In this document: positions 4,201-18,355 of the stretch, in pieces
How positions within the stretch are numbered: the first letter of the stretch is position 1
Layout: every line of letters begins with the position of its first letter
Source of the DNA: an uncultured archaeon
GTDB taxonomy: Archaea; Thermoproteota; Bathyarchaeia; Bathyarchaeales; Bathycorpusculaceae
Direction of reading: 5' to 3'
Length of the DNA stretch: 64,000 nucleotides
NCBI GenBank assembly: GCA_963810275.1
Contig: CAWENF010000003.1
Location: 64,001-128,000 of the forward strand
Made by a program: the position numbers and the translations under genes
Notes under the pieces: model-generated
What the model was told of the DNA's origin: nothing
The model's database searches: none
Seen by the model: only the letters and a program-made list of their open reading frames with translations

Positions 4201-6328
4201 CAGGTGTAGTATAGATGTCGCTGAGTGAGAAGTCAAAAACCCCATCTGTTTCCAAATCACTATCGCTAACGCCAACAACAAAAGTAGCCGAGGAATTATG
4301 CGCATCAAGATAGAGAATATTTATAGGGTTAAAGACATCCCAAGCTCTTGTATCATAATCCCATCGCAATATCTGTGTTCCTTCGTTACCCACCAAAATC
4401 ATAAAATCAGCCCCAATGGAGTCGTTTTGTCCGGGATAATAGCTTTGAGGCATGCCTGTGCTTATGTTCTGGTCCGCATCAACCATTATGGCAGTATCGA
4501 TATCTTCAAGGGCATTGTTCCAGTTGTGGTAATAGTCCACTTTAAAGAATACAACTCCAGATTGGAGTTGGCTGTAAACTGCTTTGGGAGTACAGCCGAG
4601 GTTGTAGTCAGGGCCAGAAGCGATTTGCGTCCAGCCATCATTGTCGGGGTCAGCTACAACCAAATAATTTACAGCTAATTGGTTGTTGACGAAGCTGGTT
4701 TCGCTTTCGCCTAAAGCAGGCTTAACGTAGTAAGTCACGTTGTAGGTACCTAACCCCTTTGGAGTCCACGTGACTACTCTGGAGTCAGTGCGATAAGCCG
4801 CTAAATTGGATATTATATCAGAATCCACTTTTGTGCCGTTAACGATCAGGTAAAGTTCCACGTCTGTTTCATTCATTGAGCCCTTATTGACTGCTGTCAA
4901 ATTGAAGCTTTGAGCAAAACCCAGCATGGCATAGGAAGGTTTTTCCCAAGTCTGTGCTGCAAGGTCATGCTCGACAGGTTCTTCTTCTACGCCGCGTTGT
5001 GCGTTAACTAGACCATAGCCGAAGTAATTGTCAAAGCCAGGATCGCCAATGTCTTCGCAGGTTGCCTCCAGCTGGGCTCTTACGAACTGGTGCTGTCATG
5101 CTTGGGTACTGGCTCCAAATTAGGGCGGCCACGCCGGCCACGCCGGGGCAAGCCATAGATGTACCGCTTAGGCTAGCATAATTCAAGGGGTATCCGCGTT
5201 CGGTGTTTAAGGTTACAGTGTAATTTGGCATAGTCGAGAAGATACTAACACCGGGAGCGGCAACATCCACCCAGTTGCCGTAGGTGCTAAACGACGCCTT
5301 GCTATCATTTGATTCGTTGCAGAGACTGCTACTGCGTTTTCGTAGGCTGCGGGGTAGTGATATTGATCGGTGTTGTCGTTTCCCGCTGCCGCAATGAATA
5401 ACACACCATGCGAAGTCGCGTAGTCAACTGCAGCAGCTATTGTATCGCTTTGGTCGGTTCCACCCCAGCTGTTGCTTAAAATGTTGGCGCCTGCGTCGGT
5501 TGCATTAATAATGCAGTTAGCAAGGGTAAAATATGAACCGGACCCGGTTGCATCTAATCCTTTCTCAGCCATAATTTTGACGTTAGCTGTTCCAGCGATG
5601 CCTAAGCTGTTGTTTATGGTAGCGGCGATTATTCCTGCGCAGTGGGTTCCATGTCCATTATCGTCTTGGGGATATTGGTCATTGTTGACAAAGTCGTAAC
5701 CAAAAGGAATGTAGTTGTCTTGCAGGTCAGTATGGTTGTAGTCTATGCCTGTGTCGATGACTGCCACAAGCAAATCTGCGTTGCCCGAAGTGGAGTTCCA
5801 AGCAAAATCGACATTCATGCGTTTTGGTCCCCATTGTTGACTCCAAGAGGGGTCGTTTGGAGTTGAATCGATTCTGTATCTGCCGTTTGGCTCCACATAA
5901 TTTGGGATGCCAGAGTTATGCATTCGGTCAATAAAGCCAGAAGCTACAGAAACCGGCACTTTAACGACAAACGAGACTTTCTCACCCATAGAAATAGTGT
6001 CTATAACCTGTCCGCTGTTTTGGGAGATAAAACCAGTTACCTGGTTTTTGTTGGCGGCAGTGTTGTTTACTCCCACGATGAGTTCCAGCGTATTTTGGCT
6101 ATCGACGTAGCTATTGAGGTTCTCAGCATTTAAGTGAAGAGAAGCTTTTCCGCCTTTTAGGCCGTCAGAATGGTTTACACTTGAAAGATTACTTTGTAAC
6201 CCGCCGGAGTCACGATGAATATTAATCGAAGGAACGATTGCAGATGCAACAGCCACATTACTGCATGCAAGCAAGATGAATATTGTGAGTAAACATAATA
6301 GTTTAGAAAAACTATTTTGTGCCAACAT
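1287..6328 (-). CDS. Large secreted, membrane-anchored subtilisin-like (S8) serine protease with CARDB-like, Ig-like repeat and PKD domains; split by frameshifts into ORFs 5213-6328, 5031-5270, 3350-4927, 1741-3420 and 1287-1544
   Basis: Signal peptide; triad motifs VIDTG, HGTHCAG and GTSMACP; oxyanion motif AAAGN; PKD motif WEFGD..PTHTY; PT linker; C-terminal TM helix with basic tail. Confidence 0.8.
2130..2960 (-). repeat. Three tandem ~90-aa Ig-like protein repeats within the protease gene
   Basis: Recurrent LD.T.P.GSI.I..G..Y....V.LTL...D..S....FSND...W..W..F...K.W.L....G..TVY....N.GL.S in ORF 1741-3420. Confidence 0.75.
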
Positions 6329-7195: not shown

Positions 7196-8065
7196 TTGTT
7201 TGGTATGGGATTTCAGCACCGGAAAAGCAAGCCAAACGGCAAAATAGGCGACTATGGCAAGTTTATGCGTAAAAAAGCCATTAAGAAACTTAAACAGCAA
7301 ACCAGCACCCACGAGAATGAACACCGAATTTTAACTCAAAAAGAAACATCAGAGATTACGCTTAAGAGGCTTCACATTTTGGGAAGCCAAAAATTTGGCG
7401 CCTCCCCTTACAGCGAACACTTTGAAAGGTGGCTTTTAAACATCGAGGCAGTAATAACCGAGTTCACTATGCACCCTGACATAGGTGTTGACGCCAAATT
7501 TCAAGATGAAACCAAAGAAGCATTGGATACGGTGAAGCGCCAGCTTATGGACCGAAAACAAGCCGAGGAGCTGATAAACCAGGACGCGGGGGAACTGGAA
7601 AAGTTTAGGGAACAACTTAAGCAAACGGATTTAGAGTACGCCATGAAAGCAATGGCCATAAAGGTGCGTAAGCGCAGAGAAACCAATCGGCTCAACACTG
7701 AAATCGAGTATCTTAAGCGCGAGCAGGACATGATTATCCGCTTGAAAACAGGGTTCTTCCGATTCAGATCTAAGCGGAAAAGGGAGGAAAAAGAGGCTCA
7801 AATTGTGCAGGACCTCAACAGCCGCCAAACCGAGTTAGAGTTGACGATTCTGGATTTCGCGGCAGAGCATAAAGAACTCAAAGACGACTATGACCAAAAA
7901 AGAGACCCACTATCCAAGCAGATTAAAAACCTGCAGAAAACCATCGGCATCTCCGAAACCGACGCCTCTTTGGAGGAGCGGTGGTTTGCCTGCGGAGCCT
8001 TAATCGACGCCGTGAACAGCTACCTGCAACGTAAAGCCGCCGCCTCACCTAAAGAGGAAACTTAG
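7196..8065 (+). CDS. Coiled-coil hypothetical protein
   Basis: 289-aa ORF with long charged helical heptad segments. Confidence 0.65.
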   Translation: MFGMGFQHRKSKPNGKIGDYGKFMRKKAIKKLKQQTSTHENEHRILTQKETSEITLKRLHILGSQKFGASPYSEHFERWLLNIEAVITEFTMHPDIGVDAKFQDETKEALDTVKRQLMDRKQAEELINQDAGELEKFREQLKQTDLEYAMKAMAIKVRKRRETNRLNTEIEYLKREQDMIIRLKTGFFRFRSKRKREEKEAQIVQDLNSRQTELELTILDFAAEHKELKDDYDQKRDPLSKQIKNLQKTIGISETDASLEERWFACGALIDAVNSYLQRKAAASPKEET

Positions 8066-8491
8066 AAGTCATCTTTGTCTATGCGGTAGATGTACCAGTC
8101 GAGGCCTTTTGCTCTGTTTTTTGGATCGAAATCCTGCGCTGGCTTATTCCACTTATCGCTTTAGTCTGCTGCTTGATGAAATCGAACATTGCTTTGCTTA
8201 CCCCTGTTTGCGGTAGTCTTCTTGCAAAGATGTCTTCCAAAAGGGTTGGCAAGCTAGAAAGGTAGAGTACGTGAAGTAGTATGTGAAGTAGCCTTCCGGT
8301 TTACCGTTGATTGTGGCAATGTATGCATGGTATCGGGGTTGAGCGGGTTGATAATCGCGGCGCAAGCTGGTTCTTGCTTCTTGGTCTGCCGGTGGGAGGT
8401 GCTCGTATTCGGGGACATCAGCGATTAAGATCAGTAAGGTACCAAAGTTTTCGGCGGTTACTTGTGTGATCTGGACAGTGTTTTGTTGCAT
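8062..8491 (-). pseudogene. GNAT family N-acetyltransferase (diamine acetyltransferase-like), frameshifted or partly deleted
   Basis: 'YYFTYSTFLA', 'EDYRKQG' and a C-terminal 'DWYIYRIDKDDF*' segment that is not contiguous with the upstream ORF; lies just outside the att repeat. Confidence 0.55.
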
Positions 8492-8667
8492 ACATGCACA
8501 TGTTTAGGATGGGACAAAAGCGCTATATTTTAGCAGAAAAACAGTGTTAAAGCTAAATGCAGGGCTTGCTTGAAGATTATTGCCAACCCAACTTCGCGTT
8601 TTTTTGAAAGGATTTAAAAACACTGTAAGGGCTAGCCAGAATTAACCCCGTTTGCAGTATTTTTTGG

Positions 8668-8699
8668 GTGGTGGCGGGGGTGGGACTTGAACCCACGAA
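8668..8699 (-). repeat. att site (tRNA-distal copy): tRNA T-arm plus acceptor 3' strand
   Basis: gtggtggcgggggtgggacttgaacccacgaa, identical to 17029-17060. Confidence 0.95.
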
Positions 8700-8774
8700 A
8701 GGACTTTTCTTTCCTGCTGAAAGAAAATCCCTGCCAAAAGAAAGGGCTTCATTTGGGTTTAGTTTGTTTTCCAT
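8668..8774 (-). CDS. int(N): N-terminal fragment of the split integrase
   Basis: MENKLNPNEALSFGRDFLSAGKKSPF-VGSSPTPATT reads through att in the same frame as int(C); GGAGA RBS-like sequence upstream of ATG 8774. Confidence 0.8.
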
Positions 8775-9104
8775 ATGTTATTTCTCCGTATCCTTATTTG
8801 ATACAATAATTAATCACTCAATAAACAAATATAAATGTATCACAATACGATACTTAAGTGACTACCGATGCATAAAGCCATCCTATCAGAACGTGAAAGA
8901 ACATCTACTAACCAAGTTCCTTGACGATGAACCCAATAACCGATGAAACCTTCCGCATGCTTAAAATGAGGATTAAGCGAAATTATCCCACCATAACTCA
9001 AGATTTTCAGCTAATCAGTCAACTATTAAATAAGCTGGAATCTTCCACATAGGGCTTATTTTTACCATATTTTATTTTAGAATTTACTTCTTTAATTATT
9101 GGAT

Positions 9105-9139
9105 ACCTTTTCCTGAGGTTGGGGTATACCACCCTCTAT
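9105..9139 (+). repeat. Boundary motif copy 1
   Basis: ACCTTTTCCTGAGGTTGGGGTATACCACCCTCTAT. Confidence 0.8.
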
Positions 9140-9278
9140 CAGTCATCATATGAACCATAGAACATAGTAATTGATCTTTTGATTAGTGGATTATTAGAAC
9201 AGTAAGCAATCTATTATTTACTCATCAATTAACTTTGGCATCATTTCTCTCATAGTAATTATTTGACTATTGAATCCT

Positions 9279-9309
9279 ATAGGGGGGTAGCATAGTTGTG
9301 GGAAAAGGT
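9279..9309 (-). repeat. Boundary motif copy 2 (degenerate right arm)
   Basis: Minus strand ACCTTTTCCCACAACTATGCTACCCCCCTAT. Confidence 0.7.
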
Positions 9310-9359
9310 CATTGATTTAAGTTACTGGTTTTTCATTGCCTTATTTGAGCATAATTTAA

Positions 9360-9920
9360 CTAAAATTGTCTTTCTGTTACATGATATGTCCTTTGGTCAA
9401 GTATTTGATTATTTAAGACAATTATTGCAATGAAGTCACTGTTATAAAGTTCAGAAAAATACGTGTCCAAGTTAACTGTTACAGCTAATTTGGTATCGAT
9501 TCTTTCACTTGGCTGAATTATATCAAATATTTGTGTTTTGTTAAAGGGGTCATTAGCAACCTCAGACCTTCTGACAATTAGAGTTAGACCACTAAAGTCT
9601 TTGTCTTCAAAGTTTTGAATCGCTACATCAAAATTTATGGACATTGCCACTCCACCAGGATTGTACCAGCCGTAGGTTGAGTTGAATTTCACTATTTTTA
9701 CATTATATATTTGAGTGATTGTCGGGTTTGGAGAAGGTGATGTAATGTTGAGTCTTGGTGAAGGTGTTGTTGGTATAGTGGTTGAAGTTGGTGTCGGTTC
9801 GGTTTCTGGCGATAAATCGTGCGACTGATTATTCAGTAGGTTATCGAATGAAAAAACTATGATAACGCTTGAGATTAAGACAAGTGTGAGAGTGATTATA
9901 ATTGCCTTTTTTGCAGATAT
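9360..9920 (-). CDS. Membrane-anchored/secreted protein: N-terminal hydrophobic helix, Pro/Thr linker, beta-rich domain
   Basis: ORF 9360-9692 stays open upstream (AKKAIIITLTLVLISSVIIVF...PTPTSTTIPTTPSP) to an ATA at 9920; no canonical start codon at the expected position. Confidence 0.6.
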   Translation of the reverse strand: MSAKKAIIITLTLVLISSVIIVFSFDNLLNNQSHDLSPETEPTPTSTTIPTTPSPRLNITSPSPNPTITQIYNVKIVKFNSTYGWYNPGGVAMSINFDVAIQNFEDKDFSGLTLIVRRSEVANDPFNKTQIFDIIQPSERIDTKLAVTVNLDTYFSELYNSDFIAIIVLNNQILDQRTYHVTERQF

Positions 9921-9978
9921 CCGTAAGCCCTCTTAATTTTTGATTATTTATCTCCGAATAAAAGCATTCTTGTATAGA

Positions 9979-10013
9979 CTTCTTGACTAAGACATAGTCA
10001 ACTTTTCTTGACT
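9979..10013. promoter_or_regulatory. Operator-like motif, copy A
   Basis: cttcttgactaagacatagtcaacttttcttgact; contains inverted repeat TTGACTA-N5-TAGTCAA and direct repeat TTCTTGAC. Confidence 0.55.
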
Positions 10014-10097
10014 TAGATGGCAGACCAGATTTCATACATAATAGAATTTGATAATTCTTTTAGTCAAAGTGCGTGTTTTTGTTTTTCTGTTTTTTGT

Positions 10098-10280
10098 TTA
10101 TCTTTTTGGTATAAGTATATCTGTATAGCAGAACCAGCTATTGCGAATAATGAGAAGTAAAAGAACTCTTTTGATGCCTCTGTTGGCTTGGGATAAAGTT
10201 ATGTAACCTCCAATTATGGCAATTGCAAACAGGGATATTGAAAGTAAAGACAAAAAACGATATTGTTTTGTTAGAGGCAT
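10098..10280 (-). CDS. Small hydrophobic membrane protein (possibly frameshifted)
   Basis: 60-aa ORF with a TM helix, downstream of operator-like copy B. Confidence 0.4.
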   Translation of the reverse strand: MPLTKQYRFLSLLSISLFAIAIIGGYITLSQANRGIKRVLLLLIIRNSWFCYTDILIPKR

Positions 10281-10346
10281 ATTTCCAATATTGTTTTATC
10301 TACTTTATCTAACTTGTTAATGTTACAAATACAAAAACTATACGGG

Positions 10347-10380
10347 TTTCTTGACTAAGCCACGTCACCGTTTCTTGACT
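10347..10380. promoter_or_regulatory. Operator-like motif, copy B
   Basis: tttcttgactaagccacgtcaccgtttcttgact, next to boundary motif copy 3. Confidence 0.55.
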
Positions 10381-10382
10381 AT

Positions 10383-10413
10383 ATAGGGGGTACACCTTGC
10401 CGTGGGAAAAGGT
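10383..10413 (-). repeat. Boundary motif copy 3
   Basis: Minus strand ACCTTTTCCCACGGCAAGGTGTACCCCCTAT. Confidence 0.8.
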
Positions 10414-10464
10414 AAGTATTTTTAACTTTATTACTGGTTTTTCGGTGCCTTCTGATAACTAATC

Positions 10465-11052
10465 CTAATTTATAGAATAGTATCTTTCAGCTAAAACTTG
10501 CCCATCATAAATGAGGGTAACCTGATAAGTCAAATCTCTAGCCTCAAAATAATGGTTTAAATCGACAAACAAGTCACATCTTGCTTGAGCTGATTGATTT
10601 GGCAAAACATACGGAATTGTAGCTTCACATGAATATTCGTTTTTAGCTACCTGATGTTCAGCTAAATTATGAATCAATACGGTTGCATTATTCATTTGAA
10701 CTAACCCTGTATTTGTAACTAGAACGTGAAAAGAAATGATAGTTGAAACTCCAACTACTACACTTGGATAAATTGTGTCATAAGTTATTGAAGTTATGTT
10801 TGCCCTAGCAAACGCTTGGTTTTTGACATCTTCTATATCATTTTCGATGTCTGAAATTTGTCTGGTCAGATTGGCTATTTGACTTGTTAGATTAGCAATC
10901 TTTATGTCTTTTTCATTTATTTGAGTTTCAAGTTGGGTAATTTCTGAATCTTTCTGAAGAGACGCATTATAGTAGTATAGCGTGCCACTCAGTGAAGTTA
11001 CTAGTAGCATAATAATGGCGGCAGTTACGATAATTAATCTGACCTTTTTCAT
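10465..11052 (-). CDS. Membrane-anchored protein: N-terminal TM, coiled-coil stalk, C-terminal Ig/CARDB-like domain
   Basis: Likely start MKKVRLIIVTAAIIMLLV at 11052 (ORF track extends to 11118); heptad repeat ITQLETQINEKDIKIANLTSQIANLTRQI; 'FHVLVTNTG' beta domain. Confidence 0.7.
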   Translation of the reverse strand: MKKVRLIIVTAAIIMLLVTSLSGTLYYYNASLQKDSEITQLETQINEKDIKIANLTSQIANLTRQISDIENDIEDVKNQAFARANITSITYDTIYPSVVVGVSTIISFHVLVTNTGLVQMNNATVLIHNLAEHQVAKNEYSCEATIPYVLPNQSAQARCDLFVDLNHYFEARDLTYQVTLIYDGQVLAERYYSIN

Positions 11053-11096
11053 AGTTTTAGGTTTATTCAATTCAAATAAAAGCGTTCTTGTCCAGA

Positions 11097-11130
11097 CTTC
11101 TTGACCAAGCCCTGTCAACGTTTCTTGACC
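11097..11130. promoter_or_regulatory. Operator-like motif, copy C
   Basis: cttcttgaccaagccctgtcaacgtttcttgacc, next to boundary motif copy 4. Confidence 0.55.
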
Positions 11131-11135
11131 AGAAA

Positions 11136-11168
11136 ATAGAGGGTATACACACTATCACTGGAAAAGGT
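11136..11168 (-). repeat. Boundary motif copy 4
   Basis: Minus strand ACCTTTTCCAGTGATAGTGTGTATACCCTCTAT. Confidence 0.8.
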
Positions 11169-11358
11169 GGTTATGGATTTTTCCTTTTCCCACCATTTTC
11201 ATATTCACAGAAGCATTTGAATTCTTCTGGACTTCTGATTATCCCTCTATCCATTAAATTTTGGTAATCTTCAAAGTCATAAATGAAACCACATCTTCTT
11301 ACATCTTAGAAGCATCTTAATTCTTACCACTGGCAACACCTAATAGAGAAAGAAATTA

Positions 11359-12775
11359 TCAGTTAGAGAATGGGTTAACTGAGAAGCTAACCCCATCTCC
11401 ATCGCTTGAAAGTTCCGACTGCTTAGTTTCCTTATGCGTTATCGGATAATACTTGAGTGCTACACCATCCTTCTCCTCTTTAAGCAATCCAGCACAAGCG
11501 AAATTCTTAAGCATACCACGTAAACGCTTGTCTGAACATCGTCTCTGCTTCTCATAAGAGTATATGTTATGTATTTCTTGAATCCTAAGCCCCGTACCTA
11601 AGTAGATTTCATTTTCGTTGAATGCTTTCTCGATTATTTTCCAGACTGCATATTCTTCAGGTGTCAAGCCTAAGCTGTTGCATTTTAGGATTGGTTCATA
11701 GACCTTTTTGGCATTTTCAATGTCAGATGAGTTAGCATAAATACATGAGTTGTCAGGTGTTCGGTCTCTATGTTGGAAGTTTAGTAAAGCCCAAGCTTCG
11801 GCAAGAGCATATAATCTAGGGAAATCACGTTGAGCTTTAGGTGCCAAGTTATCGATGTTTTTGAAGAACCAATCTTTCAAGTTCTCCATATCTTCAGCTT
11901 TAAACAGCACCTTCTTGATGTTTGCTTCCTTAATACGTTGTACCCGTTGCTTTAAGCCAACTCTTGAGGGTTCAGTTCTCATACCATTCGTTAAACTTGA
12001 GGTCAGTCATTTTTCTAGCTTGTAACTCAATGCCTTTTTTGATTTTGTCAGGATTATCACTTGGACTTAACAGATAGTTTCGGCTAACCTCTTGCTCATC
12101 CATTTCGCCAAATGCTGATGCAAACAGGGCAGTAAAGTATCCTTTAATCAGGACTTTTTTGGTTCGGTGGCTTCCATTCCCTGCCTTGTCTGTAACCAAG
12201 TAAGTGGATATCCTGTTTCCTGAGTTGTCATGACTTAACAGGCTTCTTATGTTCTTTAGCAGTTCATAGTTTGGCAAATCGTAGAAGACCACTATCTTCT
12301 TTGATAAATCAATGAAGTATGCTGTATGGCGTTTAAGGTCATTCCATTCTTCCCAAACTTCTTTTGGGTCGCCTTTCTTTGCACATTTGCTCATATCTAT
12401 TGGCTGTAGATTGCGGTCATCAACTGGAATAGCATTTGAACTGTAGATTAAGGCTCTAGGCGTTGAATCATTAATACCCACGATTGTATCAGAGTTAGGA
12501 TGTCGGAAGTACCATAAGCTTTCTGTTATGTTGAGGGTTTTGCCTACTGATGATTCTCCTGTTAAGACAACGTTTCTTTGTTCCTCTTCGGTGAATGTCA
12601 AGACGTTGACTAGGAATAGGGGTATCTTGACGTTTTCATCTTCATAGACTGTGGTGGATAATGCTCTGTTTAATTCGTCAAAGCCAATTTCATTGTTGAG
12701 GTATTGGTCGATTAGCTGTTGTCTTTCTCGAGTCTGGGCGTCATTATCAGTTGGATTCATCGTTTGCATCTCCAT
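11359..12775 (-). CDS. MCM-like AAA+ ATPase/putative replicative helicase with C-terminal winged helix (one frameshift near 11980)
   Basis: Walker A GESSVGKT, Walker B-like IVVFYD, arginine finger DEQEVSR, MCM-like RDFPRLYALAEAWALL and DIENA; removing one base joins EWYE to TEPSR. Confidence 0.7.
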
Positions 12776-12956
12776 TTTTTATGCAGTCTAACAACATTTG
12801 CTTATACTCACTGTACTGCTCCATCTGCGTTAACACGTCAACGTGGTAACACAAAGGGGAACAGTATTTTTGTGCAGGGCTAGCGGAAACAAAATTCATA
12901 CCGCAATTCCTGCATTCTTTTTTGGATTTAATTTTTTGCTTGCTCAATTTTATCAC
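12747..12956 (-). CDS. Small zinc-finger protein
   Basis: CRNCG...KYCSPLC; overlaps the ATPase start. Confidence 0.6.
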   Translation of the reverse strand: MIKLSKQKIKSKKECRNCGMNFVSASPAQKYCSPLCYHVDVLTQMEQYSEYKQMLLDCIKNGDANDESN

Positions 12957-13031
12957 AAAATATATATCCTCAAGGAAGTATAGATGGTATAAAGTTTATA
13001 CTTAGTATCAACATGTGTATCTTAGAGGCAA

Positions 13032-14001
13032 TGGAATGGATTAGACCAAAAGGAGAGAAGTCAAGACTATCAAGGAATTGAACGTCAATATTGCAGAGAA
13101 GACATTCTAATAACATTACTTGATGGCGATTTTGGATTCAATGAACTTGTCAGAAGATTTGAACATTCAACTGAAAAAATCAAGCAAGGAAAAAGAACCT
13201 ACAGCAGAGGTACAGTGTATAAATATCTTAGTGATTTAGTTGACGAAAATGAAAATTCAATATAGCGATAACAAGCTTGAATACGGAAAGTTGAGGACTG
13301 ACCTTATTCCTTAACTTCAGATGGACGAAAGGATTGACTGAAAAACTAACTTACCCCTTAGACATAATTCGCAGATGAATATGTTACACGTAAAATTCCG
13401 AGAATATATAAGTTCTAAAAAACCACCTTTGTATTTAACAGATGAAGGAAGGGAAGAAGCAAGAAAACAAGGATTATTTAATTCATTTAAAACAACTACC
13501 TTTTCCGCTTATAGAACGAGTTATTCTTAGCTACAAATACAAGGTTTTTGAAGCATCTTATTAGAATTTCAGACAAACCACCGATGAAAACATTCCGTTA
13601 TACTTCGCCTATAGGAAAAAACAAGGGAATTTAAACGAATTCCTATACTCATGGGTGAGTACATTCAAGATTCCTAAAAAAGAACTTACTAAAGCGGAAG
13701 AAAGAAGATTGCTTAAAATGAAGTTGCCACAGCAAATAAAAGAAAGACACTCGAATGGATAATTGAAAGTCATAGATGATGTACTGAGAGATTATAATAT
13801 TTTCAGATAGTGAGATTCTTGAGATGTGGTTGAGAACATGGTTTACTAATAGCTAATGATTCTGAGCCATTTAGAAGTGAAAAAACTGAGCATACTCAAG
13901 ACGAGATAGAGCAAATGAAACGCAAGATTAGAGAGCATATGATAATTAATGAGAATTTAGAAAACGGTATACTATCAAATGTTAAACATCTTTTCCCGTG
14001 A
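13032..14001 (+). pseudogene. Winged-helix DNA-binding protein, multiply frameshifted, divergent from the ATPase operon
   Basis: Hand translation gives GFNELVRR..YSRGTVYKYLSDLV, YSLTSDGRK, a second wing LYLTDEGREEARK, and terminal NVKHLFP* ending inside motif copy 5. Confidence 0.55.
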
Positions 14002-14020
14002 CAGGGTATACCCACCCTAT
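13988..14020 (+). repeat. Boundary motif copy 5
   Basis: ATCTTTTCCCGTGACAGGGTATACCCACCCTAT. Confidence 0.8.
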
Positions 14021-14023
14021 GGT

Positions 14024-14058
14024 ATCTTTTCCTGCGACATGGTGTACCCTCCCCCCAT
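14024..14058 (+). repeat. Boundary motif copy 6 (tandem with copy 5)
   Basis: ATCTTTTCCTGCGACATGGTGTACCCTCCCCCCAT. Confidence 0.75.
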
Positions 14059-14263
14059 CAACCTCTCCAAAAATGAAGCTAATATGCTTAACATCCACAG
14101 GCATATCTGAAAAAATTAAGCTATGGCATCCCATATAATCGTAAATGCCCCTGCTAACTAGCTGAGGGGAGTGGTTTTGATATCGCTATATATGTTAAAC
14201 TTCCCTAAGGCAAATAGAGACTGAAAAGCTTACCATGCCTACATTATAAAGAGTCATGATTAG

Positions 14264-14296
14264 ACCCTTTTCACGGGGTTGAGTGTACCTACCCTG
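14264..14296 (+). repeat. Boundary motif copy 7
   Basis: ACCCTTTTCACGGGGTTGAGTGTACCTACCCTG. Confidence 0.75.
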
Positions 14297-14346
14297 CGAA
14301 GTTTTTTATTTATTTTCATTGTATTAAACAATATCTTGGTGGTTCA

Positions 14347-15203
14347 ATGAGTTGGTTTTCTGAGCGAAAAGGGATAACAAAAGCTAAGAACAGAAATTCA
14401 ACTTGAGTCGATTGATAATTGCTTTGCAAAACCAACTCTGGAATCAGTTGGAACTTTTCTACTGGAAAGAAAATAACAGAAAATATTATACTAAAGATGG
14501 CTATTTTAGTGAGCTAATAGAATTCCTCTGGAACGATTTCTATAAGGAACCTATTGATGAGATTCCACATAAATGGAGCGATTGTCATCGTCTAATTAGA
14601 GAACGGTTTTTTGAAAGCCAATGGTATCGCAGTATACGACTTTACTTGAAGCAGTAGTTAAACTCAAAAGCTATGATACTATGGAATTTCAAAATGCATG
14701 TAACCTTATTCTGGAAAAGGGACTATCAGCTTATCGGTTTATAGATGGAAAGATAACTGAGATAACGTCTAAGGAAGAGATTTCCGAAATTGAAGAAGCA
14801 ATAAATTCTCCAATCGCAGTTGTCCAAACTCATCTGAAAAAAGGTTTAGATTTATTTTCTGATAAGCAGTCTCCCGATTACCTTAATTCAATAAAAGAAT
14901 CAATATCGGCCGTTGAAGGTCATTATGTAAATTGATAACTAAAAAATCAAAACGCAACATTAGGTGAAGCACTCAACGCTATAGAACGCCAAACTGGTGG
15001 AACTATCTTTCATCCAGCATTAACTGGAGCATTTCATAAATTATATGGTTATACAAATGATGCAGATGGAATAAGACATGGTCTTAAAAGATGAGTAAAG
15101 TAAACTGCAGGCTTCTGAAGAGGCGAAGTTTATGTTGGTTACTTGTTCAGCTTTTGTTAACTATCTTATCGCTAAAGCATCAAAGGCAGGCATCAAATTA
15201 TAG
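14347..15203 (+). CDS. AbiJ-NTD4-like abortive-infection family protein (several frameshifts)
   Basis: MSWFSERKG..., LQNQLWN, SAYRFIDGKITEITSKEEISEIEEA, PDYLNSIKESISAVE, KLYGYTNDADGIRHG and EEAKFMLVTCSAFVNYLI, spread over different frames. Confidence 0.7.
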
Positions 15204-15208
15204 TATAG

Positions 15209-15242
15209 ACCTTTTCACAGGGTAGGGTGTACATACCCCTAG
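15209..15242 (+). repeat. Boundary motif copy 8
   Basis: ACCTTTTCACAGGGTAGGGTGTACATACCCCTAG, 5 bp after the AbiJ-like stop codon. Confidence 0.8.
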
Positions 15243-15284
15243 CAATTTGATAAAATTATTAAATAAAGACTAGACATTAACCGA

Positions 15285-15851
15285 TTGATTGCAATGTGGA
15301 TAACACCGAAACATAGACATACAGACTTTCATGACCCATTAACGTTTGATGATAAAGTAACGATTTTTTATGAACAAACTCTAGGATGGCAGTTAGACAT
15401 AGCTGAGCAAGTAATCGATAACATAAACCATAGTGGATTTGGTGCTCTGTCAATTGCAGTAAGCTATTTTGAAATGATATCTAAATATCGAAGCGGTTTC
15501 TTAGGTAGGCAATCAAGGCATCATTTTAAACAAGGGGTACATATTGTCTTTCCAATACTTAGAATAGCACCGCAAGAGGTAATCGATAGCCTTCTCGACA
15601 TTTTTTATGATGGTTGTCGTTGTGGTCTATACCATAGAGGGCTTACTAACCCTCAAGTGATGCTTACGGGAGAATTAGAGACACCAATTGCTTACAATGA
15701 CTCAATTCATCAACTGATTATAAACCCTAGGAGACTGATTACTGCATTAGAGATGGATTTAGAGAATTACATTAGACTCCTACTAAATCCAACTAATGTT
15801 CAATTAAGAATTAACTTTGAACAACGTTTTGATTATGATTCTTCCCACTAA
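15285..15851 (+). CDS. HEPN-like protein (putative RNase toxin/defence effector)
   Basis: 188-aa helical protein with an Rx4H motif (RCGLYH). Confidence 0.55.
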   Translation: MIAMWITPKHRHTDFHDPLTFDDKVTIFYEQTLGWQLDIAEQVIDNINHSGFGALSIAVSYFEMISKYRSGFLGRQSRHHFKQGVHIVFPILRIAPQEVIDSLLDIFYDGCRCGLYHRGLTNPQVMLTGELETPIAYNDSIHQLIINPRRLITALEMDLENYIRLLLNPTNVQLRINFEQRFDYDSSH

Positions 15852-15885
15852 TAGGGGGTGTATACCCTCTACTATGGGAAAAGGT
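15851..15885 (-). repeat. Boundary motif copy 9 (inverted relative to copies 5-8)
   Basis: Minus strand ACCTTTTCCCATAGTAGAGGGTATACACCCCCTAT; shares a base with the TAA stop of the HEPN-like gene. Confidence 0.8.
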
Positions 15886-16136
15886 AGTTACCAATCATCA
15901 TCTAATTCTTCAGGGAATAAAGGGTCATCAAATAGAATTAAACCATCTCCTTGACTATCTTCAATTGAATTTCTTTCTAAGTTGCTTATCGGATTCTTCA
16001 TTATATGTGCTAGTTGATTGTCCAGCCGTTGACTAAGACTATGAAAGAATTTAATGCCAATCAATATGATGAGAGACTAAAAAGCCTAAGAGAAAAAAGA
16101 ATATGATGAAGGATAAAAAGTCAAACATCCAATCAC

Positions 16137-17057
16137 CTAACAGATAGGTTTTGGCTTGTTTAGGCAATATCCCCACTCAGTTTTTGTTACTAAGCTATAG
16201 CCGTCAGCAAGATATCTGGTTAGTTCTTCTTTGCTGTCTGCATAAACGACATTGTATTCGTTAGCTTTGACCCATGATTTCACAATATGGATATATCTCA
16301 ATGTGTTTGTAATGTTGCAATGCCTAGCAAATCTTTGTGTATCCACAATGTCTTTGGTTTTGAAGTACTGCCATGAAATCGCAAAATGTCTAAAGGTATG
16401 GAAGTGAATTCTTAGAAAATCCTGATTACCTGTTTCTTTGGCTAATCGTTTCTTATAATCACGGATGTTATCGTTTAGTGCTTCAGAAGTGAGTACTTCG
16501 GCAAAGATTCTTTGACCTTTCTTTGGAATTTGTAGAAGCATCGCAAATAATTCATCACTTATGTGATAAGTCAGAGTTCTATGACCTTTATTTCCAACAA
16601 TCATTATAGTTTTATTTTGAGCGTTGAAGTCTTTCCAAGTTAATCGCCAAACTTCACCTGCACTTGCACCAGTTTCAACAGCAACCTTGATTCTTGTTCT
16701 ACAATTCAAGTTACGAACACGATAAAGAAATTGCTTAACCATTTCAGGACTTGGAACATACATCTCTTCGTTATCATATGCTTTGAAGGGTGGTTTCTCG
16801 AAAGGAATACTTAGATACTCAGCATATTGTTCAACAACATCCAAAGCGTTCTCCTTTGTACCATCTTTCCATGCTTTTGACAGAACTTGATTAGCCATCT
16901 CTTGAGGAGAACCACTAAGTTGCTTGAGATAACGCATTTTTCGCTCTATAGTGCTTTCTCTATTCCCTTTCTTGTTCAGTAACCAAACTGCAAAAGATAC
17001 TGTTTGATTCACTAACGGGGGTTCTAGAGTGGTGGCGGGGGTGGGACTTGAACCCAC
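16137..17057 (-). CDS. int(C): tyrosine recombinase/integrase catalytic fragment
   Basis: ETGASAGE (Arg-I position is Ser), GNKGH, HTFRH, ARH and TLRY; ORF starts inside the att/tRNA T-arm. Confidence 0.9.
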   Translation of the reverse strand: MGSSPTPATTLEPPLVNQTVSFAVWLLNKKGNRESTIERKMRYLKQLSGSPQEMANQVLSKAWKDGTKENALDVVEQYAEYLSIPFEKPPFKAYDNEEMYVPSPEMVKQFLYRVRNLNCRTRIKVAVETGASAGEVWRLTWKDFNAQNKTIMIVGNKGHRTLTYHISDELFAMLLQIPKKGQRIFAEVLTSEALNDNIRDYKKRLAKETGNQDFLRIHFHTFRHFAISWQYFKTKDIVDTQRFARHCNITNTLRYIHIVKSWVKANEYNVVYADSKEELTRYLADGYSLVTKTEWGYCLNKPKPIC

Positions 17058-17060
17058 GAA
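17029..17060 (-). repeat. att site (tRNA-proximal copy)
   Basis: Identical 32-mer to 8668-8699. Confidence 0.95.
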
Positions 17061-17223
17061 GGCCTGCGCCAGAGGATCTTAAGTCCTCCTCCATATCTTA
17101 GGGGCAAATTGTTTTTATCTGGGATGAAGGCCTGCGCCAGAGGATCTTAAGTCCTCCTCCATATCTTAGGGGCAAATTGTTTTTATCTGGCCGCCTATTT
17201 AGACCTGGCTCGGATACCCCGCC
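17030..17223 (-). tRNA. tRNA-Leu(TAA) with D-arm intron (about position 22/23) and an internal 65-bp duplication
   Basis: Acceptor GGCGGGG/CCCCGCC-A-CCA; anticodon arm GAGGA-CTTAAGA-TCCTC; long variable arm; T arm GTGGG-TTCAAGT-CCCAC; intron 17161-17198 with a relaxed BHB (GTCT/AGAT central helix, AAA bulge, TAGG/CCTA). Confidence 0.9.
17058..17190. repeat. 65-bp perfect tandem duplication (17058-17122 and 17126-17190, separated by gat)
   Basis: gaaggcctgcgccagaggatcttaagtcctcctccatatcttaggggcaaattgtttttatctgg occurs twice. Confidence 0.95.
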
Positions 17224-17254
17224 ACCAGCAACCCAATAGAGTCAACAATGGACT

Positions 17255-17267
17255 GTTTAAGTTTTTT
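17255..17267 (-). promoter_or_regulatory. BRE/TATA-like promoter of tRNA-Leu
   Basis: Minus strand AAAAAACTTAAAC about 32-44 bp upstream of the mature 5' end. Confidence 0.5.
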
Positions 17268-17359
17268 GCATCGAACACCAGCCAACTTGAGAAGGACAAC
17301 GTGATGCGCCAGAAAAGTGGGAGAACAAGTCAGCCAAACAAAAGCCTCGCGCAGAGGTC

Positions 17360-17603
17360 AAGTTTAACGACTTAAAGGAATTTACATTTGGACGGTCTTT
17401 AGTCGCTCGATTTCTTTGTCTAAGTGCTCAACAGCGGCTAGCAGCCTCTTCTTTTTGCGCTCCATCAGCTCAACCAGTTCTTCTTTTGTGGGGGACGCAT
17501 CATCGCCATCTTCATACCCATGCCGCCGCCCATCCAGGGCATGTGGTGTGACATGTCATGAGCCGCCCCAAGGACCTTGGGCGCCCATTTTTTGCCAATC
17601 CAT
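17360..17603 (-). pseudogene. Small Gly/Met-rich plus coiled-coil protein (DUF5320-like), frameshifted; end coordinate approximate
   Basis: MDWQKMGAQGPWGG, HHMPWMGGGMGMKMAMM and TKEELVELMERKKKRLLAAVEHLDKEIERLK are not in one continuous frame. Confidence 0.4.
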
Positions 17604-17759
17604 AAAATTTCACCCCAGCCAAAAATCGTATAAAAGCGTTCATGTTCACTGCGGGTTCCGTTAACTTATCCTTATGTGACTACCCAAGGGAGTATACAGT
17701 GCTTTTTGTTGTTCCCTGTTACCAACACATGATTATATTTGATCATTGGGAGTATTGTA

Positions 17760-17914
17760 TTGCCGGTTGAGGAACACGCTTCACGGCATCATACGGGGAC
17801 TGATCTTCCGCAAACAAGTAAAGACCTGATCTGCGATGACTTCAAAGAAAAAGCTTTAAAATGAGCGAGAAGGCAGCCGATGAGTGTCAGTGGGGTTTAG
17901 ACTCAACCCGGCAA
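17760..17914 (+). ncRNA. Candidate structured small RNA (may encode a 34-aa peptide)
   Basis: Terminal inverted repeat TTGCCGGTTGAG/CTCAACCCGGCAA, an inner stem, upstream TTATAT and a downstream T tract. Confidence 0.4.
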
Positions 17915-18355
17915 CCCTCCCTTCTTTTTGCAAAATTTTTTCGGCTTGAAGCTGTTCTTTGCAGCTCAAATAATATTGGGCATCGTTGTGAAAAGTTGTC
18001 TTGTTCTATGATATATTGTAATGCCTGTAATTTTTTAATTTTAATAGTGTCTTAAGCGCGTATTTATCTTCTATATTTACCGACCTATACTCGGTTGTCA
18101 ATTGATGCATATTTTCTAAGCGGACCTATCAAGCCGCCACAATTACAGTAAAATGGTTTAATGCCGCATTTAAAAGAAAAACTTATTATCACACTTAAAT
18201 ATACGAAAGAAAGGCTGCAACCCCAAAACGGAGATTATAGCTTTTGACGCAATCTTTTGGTGCCGTTAAAAACGTCACGCCCAATAAGACAAAAAGTAAA
18301 ATGTCATCGCTCACCCGTCAGCAACCATAAAAACACCCAAAACCAAAACAATAGT

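What the first reader, a model, noticed from the sequence alone, without database searches (positions are those of the whole stretch)
9105..15885. Candidate new gene-cassette system: nine ~33-bp bipartite sites punctuate the cargo of an archaeal integrative element
Seen: nine copies of ACCTTTTC(C/A)-N9-11-GT(A/G)TAC-..CCCT(AT) at 9105, 9279, 10383, 11136, 13988, 14024, 14264, 15209 and 15851. None were found by eye in the other ~55 kb. They have two conserved arms around a variable spacer, and the right arm is often an imperfect hairpin. They hug gene ends: 5 bp after the AbiJ-like stop, overlapping the HEPN-like stop, and containing the wHTH stop. Copies 5 and 6 are back to back, like an empty slot. 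Known: integron attC sites and Xer pdif modules delimit single-gene cassettes in this way, but this motif lacks the attC RYYYAAC/GTTRRRY cores and I do not recognise it as dif. Inference: these are recombination sites for capturing, losing or shuffling cargo genes, acted on by the element integrase or a host XerA.
Basis: partly seen in the sequence, partly recalled or inferred. Interest (0 to 1): 0.9.

Follow-up and report, generated by a model that had tools for sequence, protein, structure and literature searches.

The report
Archaeal gene-cassette boundary motif
A conserved 33-base motif sits directly after the stop codon of almost every transcription unit in a small tRNA-integrated element of a Bathyarchaeota-like archaeon, and it marks the points where related elements and gene arrays have swapped genes, so it looks like the joint of a gene-cassette system that is not an integron.

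Summary
The pattern CTTTTCM-N8-12-GTRTAC matches 8 times in the window against 0.04 expected. The same genome holds a second cluster of about 11 copies in a related element on another contig.

The window element spans 8668-17060. It is bounded by a 32-bp tRNA-end repeat, and its integrase gene reads across that repeat. The integrase's own att site is therefore the tRNA end, not the motif.

The motif is confined to one genus. It occurs in elements with two integrase clades only 22% identical, and in integrase-less arrays of surface-protein genes.

Homology between loci starts or stops at the motif. A 0.5-kb single-gene cassette occurs in 6 of 120 genomes in unrelated flanks. A 1349-bp indel between two 95.7%-identical stretches has its joints at the left arm.

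The motif is not attC, not dif, not a hairpin under selection, and not the host's oligo-T terminator. It does close backbone operons too, which is terminator-like.

Best reading (0.45): a cassette joint used by a recombinase, with exchange in or beside CCTTTTCC. Main rival (0.33): a PeSL-like regulatory punctuation mark recombined through homology.

The parts
9105..9138 (+). motif copy 1; with copy 2 it forms a convergent pair about 205 bp from outer end to outer end
   Evidence: equivalent pairs of 201-211 bp in 7 other loci
9276..9309 (-). motif copy 2 (GCTAC core variant); its left arm overlaps the TGA of the leftward cargo gene
10381..10413 (-). motif copy 3, after cargo gene 10465-11118
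11134..11168 (-). motif copy 4, closing the backbone operon F17-F1
13988..14020 (+). motif copy 5, directly after the decayed PadR-like (F6) gene
14024..14056 (+). motif copy 6, in tandem with copy 5; the tandem is present in 3 elements and a single site in 4
14265..14297 (+). motif copy 7, upstream boundary of the AbiJ cassette
15209..15241 (+). motif copy 8, 5 bases after the AbiJ-like stop
15851..15885 (-). motif copy 9, closing the int-F3 operon; spacer type conserved in all elements
8668..8699 (.). attL: 32-bp copy of a tRNA 3' end
   Evidence: weak tRNA-like Rfam match at 8669-8735
17029..17060 (.). attR: identical 32-bp repeat at the 3' end of the target tRNA gene
16137..17057 (-). tyrosine recombinase (integrase); its start lies inside attR, so integration cuts the gene off from the part at the attL side (ORF 8577-8774)
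   Evidence: Pfam Phage_integrase 1.4e-14; NCBIfam XerA 49.4 bits against cut-off 220
15888..16064 (-). F3, small conserved ORF between int and copy 9
11359..12775 (-). F1, backbone gene of about 500 aa carrying a GxxxxGKT signature (seen by eye in the window sequence; GKT invariant); here split into 207 + 267 aa, intact in other elements
12747..12956 (-). F17, zinc-ribbon ORF upstream of F1
13026..13985 (+). remnant of the PadR-like wHTH backbone gene F6, broken in several frames
   Evidence: (79.7% identity to the intact gene in L048)
14388..15203 (+). AbiJ-like gene in four frame pieces (pseudogene)
   Evidence: AbiJ_NTD4 4.6e-05 and 2.2e-11 on two pieces
15285..15851 (+). 188-aa ORF of no known family, lying between copies 8(+) and 9(-)
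9360..11118 (-). cargo: three leftward genes for small membrane or secreted proteins (9360-9930 frameshifted, 10098-10280, 10465-11118)
9966..10013 (-). promoter region with paired GTCAAGAA boxes; further copies at 10348-10380 and 11084-11130

Best explanation
The motif is the joint between standard gene modules ('cassettes') of a family of mobile DNA in one Bathyarchaeota-like genus. Its consensus is (stop)-ACCTTTTCC, then 6-10 variable bases, then GGGTGTACC-CACCCT.

A module consists of the site body (spacer, GTRTAC core and C-rich right arm), a promoter, one gene or operon, its stop codon and the next CCTTTTCC. Modules are gained, lost and exchanged by breakage and joining in or just beside the CCTTTTCC left arm. 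I think the most likely agent is a site-specific recombinase working in trans: a tyrosine recombinase such as an element integrase, or the host XerA.

In the tRNA-integrated elements, arrays of cargo modules hang co-oriented from the sites that close the backbone operons F17-F1 and F6.

Shown: the motif, its polarity, its restriction to this genus and these loci, the coincidence of homology boundaries with it, and one indel with joints in the left arm.

Inferred: that the exchange is site-specific rather than homology-driven, the exact crossover point, and the enzyme.
For: 1. Clustering. There are 8 matches in the window against 0.04 expected. The genome has 16 pattern matches: 8 in the window, 7 in C21:213019-226935 and 1 stray.

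2. Mosaic blocks. Window-versus-C21 blocks of 75-92% identity end at or near sites: 8700-9317, 9959-10390, 13990-14204 and 15860-16128. Across six loci, 33 of 197 HSP ends lie within 10 bp of a site against 8.7 expected; related loci are not independent. In the larger set, 15 of 28 gene-side HSPs stop at site offsets 25-34, and 11 of 26 downstream-side HSPs start at -5 to +4.

3. A travelling cassette. L193:5377-5942 and L051:9198-8633 are 96.3% identical over 567 bp, running from one site through a 148-aa gene into the next site, with unrelated flanks. Relatives of that gene occur in 6 of 120 genus genomes. Homology is confined to the stretch between the flanking sites, and the immediate flanks beyond the sites differ in all six except L220 and L221, which share downstream sequence.

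4. An indel at a site. C6 and C2 of the same assembly are 95.7% identical. They differ by 1349 bp (C2:133240-134588, carrying a gene with an HxK..D motif seen by eye). Both joints lie at CTTTTCC(A)CATA, directly before the core of site C6:4997-5029.

5. Linkage. Among site pairs that share only downstream sequence (39 pairs), spacer length agrees in 0.87 and right-arm positions in 0.85-0.92. The background is 0.51 and 0.45-0.61. Pairs that share only the upstream gene (60 pairs) sit at background: 0.50 and 0.40-0.67. The site body therefore travels with the downstream module, and the joint lies at the left arm.

6. Arrays without backbone genes. L193 has 4 co-oriented sites in 1.6 kb; L051, L186, L184 and L210 are similar.

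7. Not a host terminator. Only 1 of 1087 long ORFs has CCTTTTCC within 12 bases after its stop codon (counted over the stop plus the next 17 bases). Host genes instead show runs of 5 or more T, 28% against 9% in controls.

8. Tandem site variation. Copies 5 and 6 form a tandem in the window, L017 and L053. L048, L049, L050 and L052 each have a single site there.
Against: 1. The motif closes backbone operons (int-F3, F17-F1, F6) in the sense direction and abuts stop codons. That is what a terminator-like punctuation mark would do.

2. No recombinase is tied to it. The element integrases act at tRNA ends and fall into two clades 22% identical. The 146 ORFs of 14 backbone-less loci show no recombinase or transposase among the 25 commonest of 95 Pfam families; the other 70 families were not shown.

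3. The site lacks the dyad symmetry usual for tyrosine recombinase core sites: the best 11-6-11 match is 5.9 of 11 against 5.4 in shuffles.

4. Another conserved element, the promoter, is also a block boundary (window 9959 = C21 219991). This fits homology-driven exchange.

5. AbiJ relatives in 4 other genomes are followed by no site (0 of 4).

6. The apparent invariance of CTTTTC is partly circular, because sites were found by searching for it.

7. The pairs are not independent (48 and 36 distinct sites), and backbone sites such as copy 9 keep their spacer together with the upstream gene.
Confidence: 0.45

Rival explanations
1. Composite regulatory punctuation, like the PeSL motifs of T4-like phages. 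The CCTTTTCC tract with the weak G-run/C-run hairpin ends the upstream transcript. The site body belongs to the control region of the next promoter. Modules are exchanged by homologous recombination between these short conserved sequences, with no dedicated recombinase.
For: The site sits in the sense direction at the end of every transcription unit, backbone included. In arrays a conserved promoter follows 10-60 bases after the site: AATCTTTTAAGCAAGG, a 25-base stretch found 96-100% identical in 42 of 120 genomes. The GTCAAGAA boxes are another such element. The promoter itself is a block boundary. The site body is linked to downstream DNA. No recombinase is linked to the arrays. PeSL motifs are described as small composite terminator/promoter sequences that serve as points of exchange between unrelated genes (abstract of PMC4122927).
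Against: The T run is four long, whereas host genes favour five or more. Complete sites also stand where no gene follows: copies 1 and 2 converge, and copy 9 faces a converging gene. The shared homology is only about 33 bp at roughly 70% column identity, which is short for homologous recombination. The arm-to-core spacing is constant at 8-12 bases, which suggests a single unit. No covariation supports the hairpin.
Confidence: 0.33
2. Purely regulatory site: a protein-dependent terminator or roadblock, or an operator for an element regulator such as the PadR-like F6 or the DUF7347 HTH proteins. It would play no part in recombination. Block boundaries fall there only because they fall at gene ends.
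For: Sequence is conserved without structural covariation, which fits protein recognition. wHTH genes recur: F6 in every element, and DUF7347 in 3 of the 146 ORFs. The site has a strict polarity relative to genes.
Against: Boundaries are accurate to within a few bases at the site, not merely 'between genes'. The C6/C2 indel has its joints inside the motif. The tandem copies vary in number between elements.
Confidence: 0.12
3. Binding sites of the element's replication or partition machinery, in the manner of ORBs or iterons. The convergent pair around an AT-rich stretch would be the origin.
For: In 7 of 8 loci examined, plus the window (205 bp) and C21 (204 bp), a (+) and a (-) site lie 201-211 bp apart around a non-conserved AT-rich stretch next to attL. 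Archaeal origins are described as an AT-rich region flanked by inverted conserved repeats next to an initiator gene (passages of PMC4010727). F1 carries a GxxxxGKT signature, seen by eye in the window sequence; GKT is invariant in the alignment.
Against: Most copies are scattered one per gene end and polar to genes. Arrays exist without F1. The pair is not next to F1.
Confidence: 0.05
4. Ends of non-autonomous single-strand (IS200/IS605-type, Y1 HUH) transposable cassettes. They would insert 3' of CTTTTCC, with the core acting as the subterminal hairpin.
For: A fixed distance separates a conserved short sequence from an imperfect hairpin. The site has a strict polarity. The body is linked to the downstream unit.
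Against: Y1_Tnp (PF01797) is found in 42 of 120 genus genomes. It is absent from G000, G382, G454, G401 and G347, five of the six genomes with the most pattern matches; the sixth, G404, has one match. The hairpin shows no covariation.
Confidence: 0.03

Closest known systems
Integron gene cassettes and attC sites, including the archaeal integrons of Ghaly et al. 2022 (PMC9668308; passages read)
   Same: Short sites punctuate arrays of mostly single, co-oriented genes. The sites sit tight against stop codons. Arrays occur with or without a neighbouring tyrosine recombinase, as with CALINs. The same cassette is found in different contexts.
   Different: The site is 33-36 bp and conserved in sequence, not a 55-140 bp structure-defined hairpin (that size range and the RYYYAAC/GTTRRRY cores are recalled, not from a call). 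It shows no folding covariation. The integrases score far below the integron-integrase cut-off. Cassettes carry their own promoters. Most of the site travels with the downstream gene rather than the upstream one. Sites occur on both strands within one element.
PeSL composite terminator/promoter motifs of T4-like phages (PMC4122927, abstract read; PMC2839356, search listing only)
   Same: A small conserved intergenic motif stands between variable genes of unknown function. Insertions, deletions and replacements between relatives are bounded by it. It combines terminator-like and promoter-adjacent parts.
   Different: This is an archaeal integrative element and chromosomal arrays, not a lytic phage with a hyperactive recombination system. 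The motif is shorter. No terminator or promoter activity has been shown. One indel has its joints at a defined place in the motif.
Xer-dependent dif and pdif modules (dif definition from PMC8371274, passages read; pdif modules of Acinetobacter plasmids recalled, no call)
   Same: Short sites bound small gene modules, sometimes in inverted pairs (copies 1/2 and 8/9). Xer-like tyrosine recombinases are present in the cell.
   Different: There is no 11-6-11 dyad. The sites are mostly direct repeats in arrays. The element integrases fall below the XerA cut-off.
Shufflon sfx sites acted on by Rci (recalled, no call)
   Same: A tyrosine-recombinase site that is asymmetric, with only one conserved arm. 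This shows that a missing dyad does not exclude such enzymes.
   Different: Shufflons invert segments inside one gene. Here the sites lie between genes and mostly as direct repeats.

Membership tests
Integron (attC / IntI) | Integron-type integrase | tested here: not met
   TIGR02249 scores 21.3 and 47.5 bits against a cut-off of 265 for the two integrase clades
Integron (attC / IntI) | attC: imperfect inverted repeats that fold as single-stranded DNA, with sequence variable but structure kept | tested here: not met
   The site is 33-36 bp and sequence-conserved. Native and chimeric half-sites fold equally well: -6.08 vs -6.03 kcal/mol, p=0.54; -1.92 vs -1.88, p=0.42.
Integron (attC / IntI) | Cassette boundaries coincide with the sites; arrays of co-oriented short ORFs | tested here: met
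   However, the cassettes carry promoters, and the elements hold sites on both strands.
Xer/dif and dif-like modules | Two 11-nt inverted repeats around a 6-nt spacer (definition from PMC8371274) | tested here: not met
   Best dyad is 5.9 of 11 against 5.4 of 11 in shuffles, over 104 sites
Xer/dif and dif-like modules | XerA-type recombinase as the acting enzyme | not testable with these tools
   The element integrases score 49.4 and 96 bits on NF040815 against a cut-off of 220. The host XerA was not looked for.
PeSL-like composite regulatory motif | Conserved intergenic motif that bounds indels and replacements between relatives | tested here: met
PeSL-like composite regulatory motif | Terminator plus promoter activity | not testable with these tools
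   No RNA data were available. Only a T4 run, a weak hairpin and a promoter-like sequence downstream were seen.
Archaeal intrinsic (oligo-T) terminator | Run of five or more T soon after the stop codon, as enriched at this genome's own genes | tested here: not met
   The motif has TTTT flanked by C in 118 of 118 profiled sites, though detection required it. Host genes: 28% against 9% have five or more T.
IS200/IS605-type ends / REP-like elements | Y1 HUH transposase in the same genomes | tested here: not met
   PF01797 has no match in G000, G382, G454, G401 and G347
CRISPR repeat | Regularly spaced repeats with unique spacers | tested here: not met
   No array was found in the genome with an 18-mer spacing scan. 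Copies lie 36 bp to several kb apart.
Integrase att site of the element | Direct repeat at both ends of the element | tested here: not met
   The end repeat is a 32-bp tRNA end at 8668 and 17029, unrelated to the motif

The most novel reading that the evidence does not exclude
This is a site-specific gene-cassette system of archaea that has not been described and is unrelated to integrons. It uses an asymmetric site of about 33 bp whose exchange point is the CCTTTTCC directly after the stop codon. Its cassettes bring their own promoter and carry the body of the site at their 5' end, the reverse polarity of an integron cassette. The system is shared between tRNA-integrating elements with unrelated integrases and chromosomal arrays of surface-protein and defence genes, so the recombinase acts in trans.
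Probability: 0.4. Interest if true: 0.85.

Novelty: new variant of a known kind. Interest (0 to 1): 0.66.

Why it matters
Bathyarchaeota-like archaea are abundant and uncultured, and how they exchange genes is largely unknown. The known archaeal cassette arrays are ordinary integrons with attC sites. A second, unrelated way of packaging single genes into exchangeable modules would bear on how their cell-surface and defence repertoires diversify. Here the modules carry surface proteins (PKD, NosD-like, Kelch) and defence-type genes (AbiJ, a gene with an HxK..D motif). It would also add a new recombination site, and probably a new site-enzyme pair, to the known set. If the motif instead proves to be a regulatory punctuation mark that recombines through homology, it would be the first archaeal counterpart of the phage PeSL idea. 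Either way the motif is a practical marker for finding these modules in metagenomes.

Tried and rejected
Reads. Only three runs of one study held part of the stretch, and only as contigs. The best share of words was 0.20. Laid on 8600-17100, they showed no joint at any motif copy. The single joint listed (14905-15044) lies inside the AbiJ remnant. Contigs cannot show rare circles.

Public collections. The viral contigs held neither the motif nor a relative of F1. The metagenome scan gave 2 loci that are 99.7% identical to each other. The one multi-match locus (L114) is titled as a Candidatus Bathyarchaeota MAG.

Rfam. Nothing matched in 8000-18000 except weak tRNA-like matches at the two att ends.

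Hairpin and attC idea. Many sites fold (mean z -1.6), but swapping half-sites between sites does not weaken folding.

dif idea: no dyad. CRISPR idea: no arrays. HUH idea: no Y1 transposase in the site-rich genomes.

Inversion test. The stretches between convergent site pairs share no detectable homology between elements, so their orientation could not be compared.

Half-sites. In L220 and L223 the cassette-distal halves of the flanking sites are degenerate in 4 of 4 junctions. At least one of these looks like simple C-to-T decay, so I give this little weight.

F1 and F6. F1 has no Pfam, NCBIfam, PHROG or PDB-sequence match. F6 has no NCBIfam, PHROG or PDB-sequence match and only a PadR match in Pfam. 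The F1 structure model had a mean pLDDT of 44 and was not searched.

The AbiJ gene as a travelling cassette: its relatives elsewhere carry no site.

Supplementary files of the papers were not consulted; data S1 and S3 of PMC9668308 might list integrons in related MAGs.

No search of the papers library was made for the motif itself. The statement that it is undescribed rests only on the absence of a match in Rfam and on the four literature searches, none of which was aimed at it.

Full report
**1. The observation**

The pattern CTTTTCM-N8-12-GTRTAC matches 8 times in the 64-kb window, all inside 9105-15885. One hundred dinucleotide-preserving shuffles gave a mean of 0.04. The ninth copy (9276-9309) has GCTAC instead of GTRTAC. 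The left arm alone is not enriched: 48 matches against 42.7 expected with one mismatch allowed.

An alignment of 65 sites gives the consensus nnGACCTTTTCCCACGnTnGGGTGTACCCACCCTnT. A profile of 118 sites shows three parts:
- a C/T-rich left arm,
- a variable spacer that ends in a G run before GT(G/A)TAC,
- a C-rich right arm reaching to about 14 bases past the start of the core.

Because sites were found by looking for CTTTTC, the apparent invariance of that stretch is partly built in.

**2. The element in the window**

A 32-bp direct repeat lies at 8668-8699 and 17029-17060. It is the 3' end of a tRNA gene. Rfam gives weak tRNA-like matches at both places. Between the repeats the G+C content is 31-40%, against 45-50% outside.

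A tyrosine recombinase gene (16137-17057, minus strand; Pfam Phage_integrase 1.4e-14) starts inside the right repeat. An ORF conserved in related elements reads through the left repeat (8577-8774). The integrase's own recombination site is the tRNA end, not the motif.

The element is decaying:
- The large backbone gene F1 is split into 207 + 267 aa. It is about 475-510 aa and intact in other elements.
- The PadR-like gene F6 is broken into many frames.
- The AbiJ gene is in four pieces, with AbiJ_NTD4 matches on two of them.

**3. Where else the motif occurs**

The same assembly (2.26 Mb, 28 contigs) has 16 pattern matches. Eight are in the window, seven in C21:213019-226935 and one is a stray; the reversed-pattern control gave 0 + 2. 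Looser scans raise the C21 cluster to about 11 sites and add two related sites on C6 and C2.

In 401 genomes of the class, clear clusters appear only in four genomes of the window's own genus: G000 16, G382 19, G347 9 and G368 7. All other genomes stay at the level of the control. Within the genus, 57 of 120 genomes have at least one match to a slightly stricter pattern. Single matches can be chance, since the control also hits, but most of the listed sequences show the full consensus.

A scan of 185,579 species genomes returned chance singletons and one three-match locus titled as a Bathyarchaeota MAG. The viral and metagenome collections gave nothing or almost nothing.

**4. Two kinds of context**

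(a) Elements like the one in the window. They share this backbone:
- a small ORF at attL, followed by a convergent pair of sites;
- cargo;
- F17 (zinc ribbon) and F1, closed by a site;
- F6 (PadR-like), closed by one or two sites;
- a variable gene;
- a site, then F3, the integrase and the tRNA.

The integrases fall into two clades only 22% identical. They target tRNA-Leu or tRNA-Gln, yet the same motif is used in both.

(b) Arrays or single copies with none of these genes within about 5 kb. Only 3 of the 20 further loci fetched first had any backbone match, and the second batch looks the same. Many of these sites follow genes for surface proteins (PKD, NosD-like beta-helix, Kelch) that end in a membrane helix plus an RHRK-type tail.

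Some arrays occupy the same tRNA-Leu locus that holds a full element in other species, so they are probably integrase-less remnants. Others have no tRNA gene in the fetched stretch.

**5. Polarity**

The motif reads in the direction of the gene before it and abuts that gene's stop codon. Of 139 sites, 59 have a same-strand ORF of 60 aa or more ending within 30 bases before the site. Only 18 have an opposite-strand ORF at the other end. The commonest distances are 0, +1 (TGA sharing the first A of the motif) and -2.

In the window this holds for cargo genes and equally for the backbone operons: int-F3 then copy 9, F17-F1 then copy 4, and F6 then copies 5 and 6.

**6. Module boundaries**

*Window against C21.* Blocks of 75-92% identity begin or end at sites, while what lies between differs. 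For example, the window has an AbiJ cassette and a 188-aa ORF between copies 7 and 9, where C21 has a single unrelated 272-aa gene.

*HSP ends.* In six loci, 33 of 197 HSP ends lie within 10 bp of a site against 8.7 expected. Related loci are not independent, so the binomial p-value is not to be taken at face value. In the larger set of 54 loci and 140 sites, gene-side HSPs stop at site offsets 25-34 (15 of 28), and downstream-side HSPs start at -5 to +4 (11 of 26).

*The clearest case.* A 567-bp stretch is 96.3% identical between two species. It runs from one site through a 148-aa gene into the next site, and the flanks are unrelated. Relatives of that gene occur in 6 of 120 genus genomes. 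Homology is confined to the stretch between the flanking sites or their remnants. The sequences printed just outside the sites differ in every genome except L220 and L221, which share some downstream sequence.

*An indel inside the assembly.* Contig C6 is 95.7% identical to part of C2 but lacks 1349 bp. The missing stretch carries a gene with an HxK..D motif, seen by eye in the sequence. Both joints lie at CTTTTCC(A)CATA, immediately before the core of a site.

**7. Where in the site is the joint?**

I compared two kinds of site pairs.

| Pair type | Pairs | Same spacer length | Right-arm identity |
|---|---|---|---|
| Share only downstream sequence | 39 | 0.87 | 0.85-0.92 |
| Share only the upstream gene | 60 | 0.50 | 0.40-0.67 |
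| Background (neither) | 6593 | 0.51 | 0.45-0.61 |

The spacer, core flank and right arm therefore travel with the downstream module. The first two bases and the stop codon travel with the upstream gene. The joint lies in or beside CCTTTTCC, which agrees with the C6/C2 indel.

Two caveats apply. The pairs are not independent. And backbone sites such as copy 9 keep their spacer type together with the upstream gene F3.

**8. What the motif is not**

- *Not attC.* It is too short and is conserved in sequence. Although many copies can form a small hairpin, exchanging half-sites between copies leaves the folding energy unchanged. The integrases score 21 and 47 bits on the integron-integrase model, whose cut-off is 265.
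- *Not dif-like.* The best 11-6-11 dyad is 5.9 of 11 against 5.4 in shuffles (definition of dif from PMC8371274).
- *Not a CRISPR repeat*.
- *Not the end of a Y1-transposase element.* Five of the six genomes with the most sites have no such gene.
- *Not the host's usual terminator.* Host genes are enriched for runs of five or more T after the stop codon (28% against 9%). Only 1 of 1087 long ORFs has CCTTTTCC within 12 bases after its stop.

**9. What speaks for a regulatory reading**

The motif ends every transcription unit, backbone operons included, in the sense direction.

In arrays a conserved promoter follows it closely. A 25-base stretch, AATCTTTTAAGCAAGG..., is 96-100% identical in 42 of 120 genomes. 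In the window the promoters carry paired GTCAAGAA boxes, found 6 times in the genome, 5 of them in the two elements. One window/C21 block boundary lies at such a promoter and not at a motif.

No recombinase gene recurs near the integrase-less arrays. Only the 25 commonest of 95 matched Pfam families were shown.

This is the pattern described for PeSL motifs of T4-like phages: small composite terminator/promoter sequences that act as points of exchange between unrelated genes (abstract of PMC4122927).

**10. Weighing**

Three points lead me to put a recombinase-mediated joint first, at 0.45:
- the shared homology is only about 33 bp at roughly 70% identity;
- the arm-to-core spacing is constant;
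- complete sites stand where no gene follows (copies 1 and 2 converge; copy 9 faces a converging gene).

I put homology-driven exchange at a composite regulatory motif second, at 0.33. A purely regulatory site gets 0.12.

The convergent site pair around a non-conserved AT-rich stretch has a constant outer length of 201-211 bp in 7 of 8 loci examined, 205 bp in the window and 204 bp in C21. This fits neither reading and suggests an origin-like structure, to which I give 0.05.

The enzyme is unknown. That two distant integrase clades share the motif favours a factor acting in trans.

**11. Comparison and novelty**

In function the closest known systems are integron cassette arrays, including those reported in archaea (PMC9668308, passages), and PeSL-mediated shuffling. 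The motif meets the defining features of neither attC nor dif. I file it as a new variant of a known kind, a cassette-type modular exchange system with a new site. It is restricted, as far as searched, to one genus. Everything rests on sequence comparison; nothing here shows an enzyme acting on the site.

Noticed in passing
window 17060-17195: Just inside the target tRNA gene next to attR, a stretch of about 66 bp (GAAGGCCTGCGCCAGAGGATCTTAAGTCC...TTATCTGG) is present twice in tandem. ARAGORN calls no tRNA in the window, so the gene may carry an intron or be disrupted.
   Followed up: no
G000 contig C6 (whole) versus C2:128765-136742: The 13.2-kb contig C6 is a 94-97% identical copy or strain variant of part of C2. 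The two differ by a 1349-bp indel at a motif site. The assembly therefore holds two haplotypes or a recent duplication.
   Followed up: partly
L210:5129-5153 and 5556-5580; many genus genomes: A promoter-like sequence, AATCTTTTAAGCAAGGTC, lies about 30 bases before start codons. It is 96-100% identical over 25 bases in 42 of 120 genomes of the genus, often in several copies per genome.
   Followed up: partly
window 9966-10013, 10348-10380, 11084-11130; C4:62505-62530: Paired boxes of the form GTCAAGAA-N-TTGAC...GTCAAGAA lie upstream of the leftward cargo genes and look like an operator for a dimeric regulator. There are six such pairs in the genome, five of them in the two elements.
   Followed up: partly
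cargo genes in L017, L048, L051, L182, L186, L187, L194 (for example L187:5069-5956): Many site-linked surface proteins (PKD, NosD-like, Kelch) end with a hydrophobic helix followed by (F/L)RRHRK(T/P)xNLKQ-type tails, which looks like a C-terminal sorting or anchor signal. Short remnants of this coding end often persist next to sites.
   Followed up: no
window 9105-9309; L017 3017-3220; L048, L050, L187, L194, L202, L213: The convergent site pair next to attL keeps an outer length of 201-211 bp, while the AT-rich sequence between the sites is not conserved between elements.
   Followed up: partly
window 11359-12775, 13026-13985, 14388-15203, 9360-9930: Four genes of the element are interrupted by frameshifts (F1, F6, AbiJ-like, one cargo gene). 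F1 in the C21 element is broken into even more pieces. Both copies in this genome look like decaying integrated elements.
   Followed up: partly
L228 (G442:C10:1-2246): An AbiJ relative 72% identical to the window's lies directly beside the same kind of tRNA 3' end that forms the window's att repeat, with no motif between them.
   Followed up: no
L193:11101-11736; L051:91-942: Defence-type genes sit at the edges of integrase-less motif arrays: a TIR_2 domain protein and a Fic/DOC protein.
   Followed up: no
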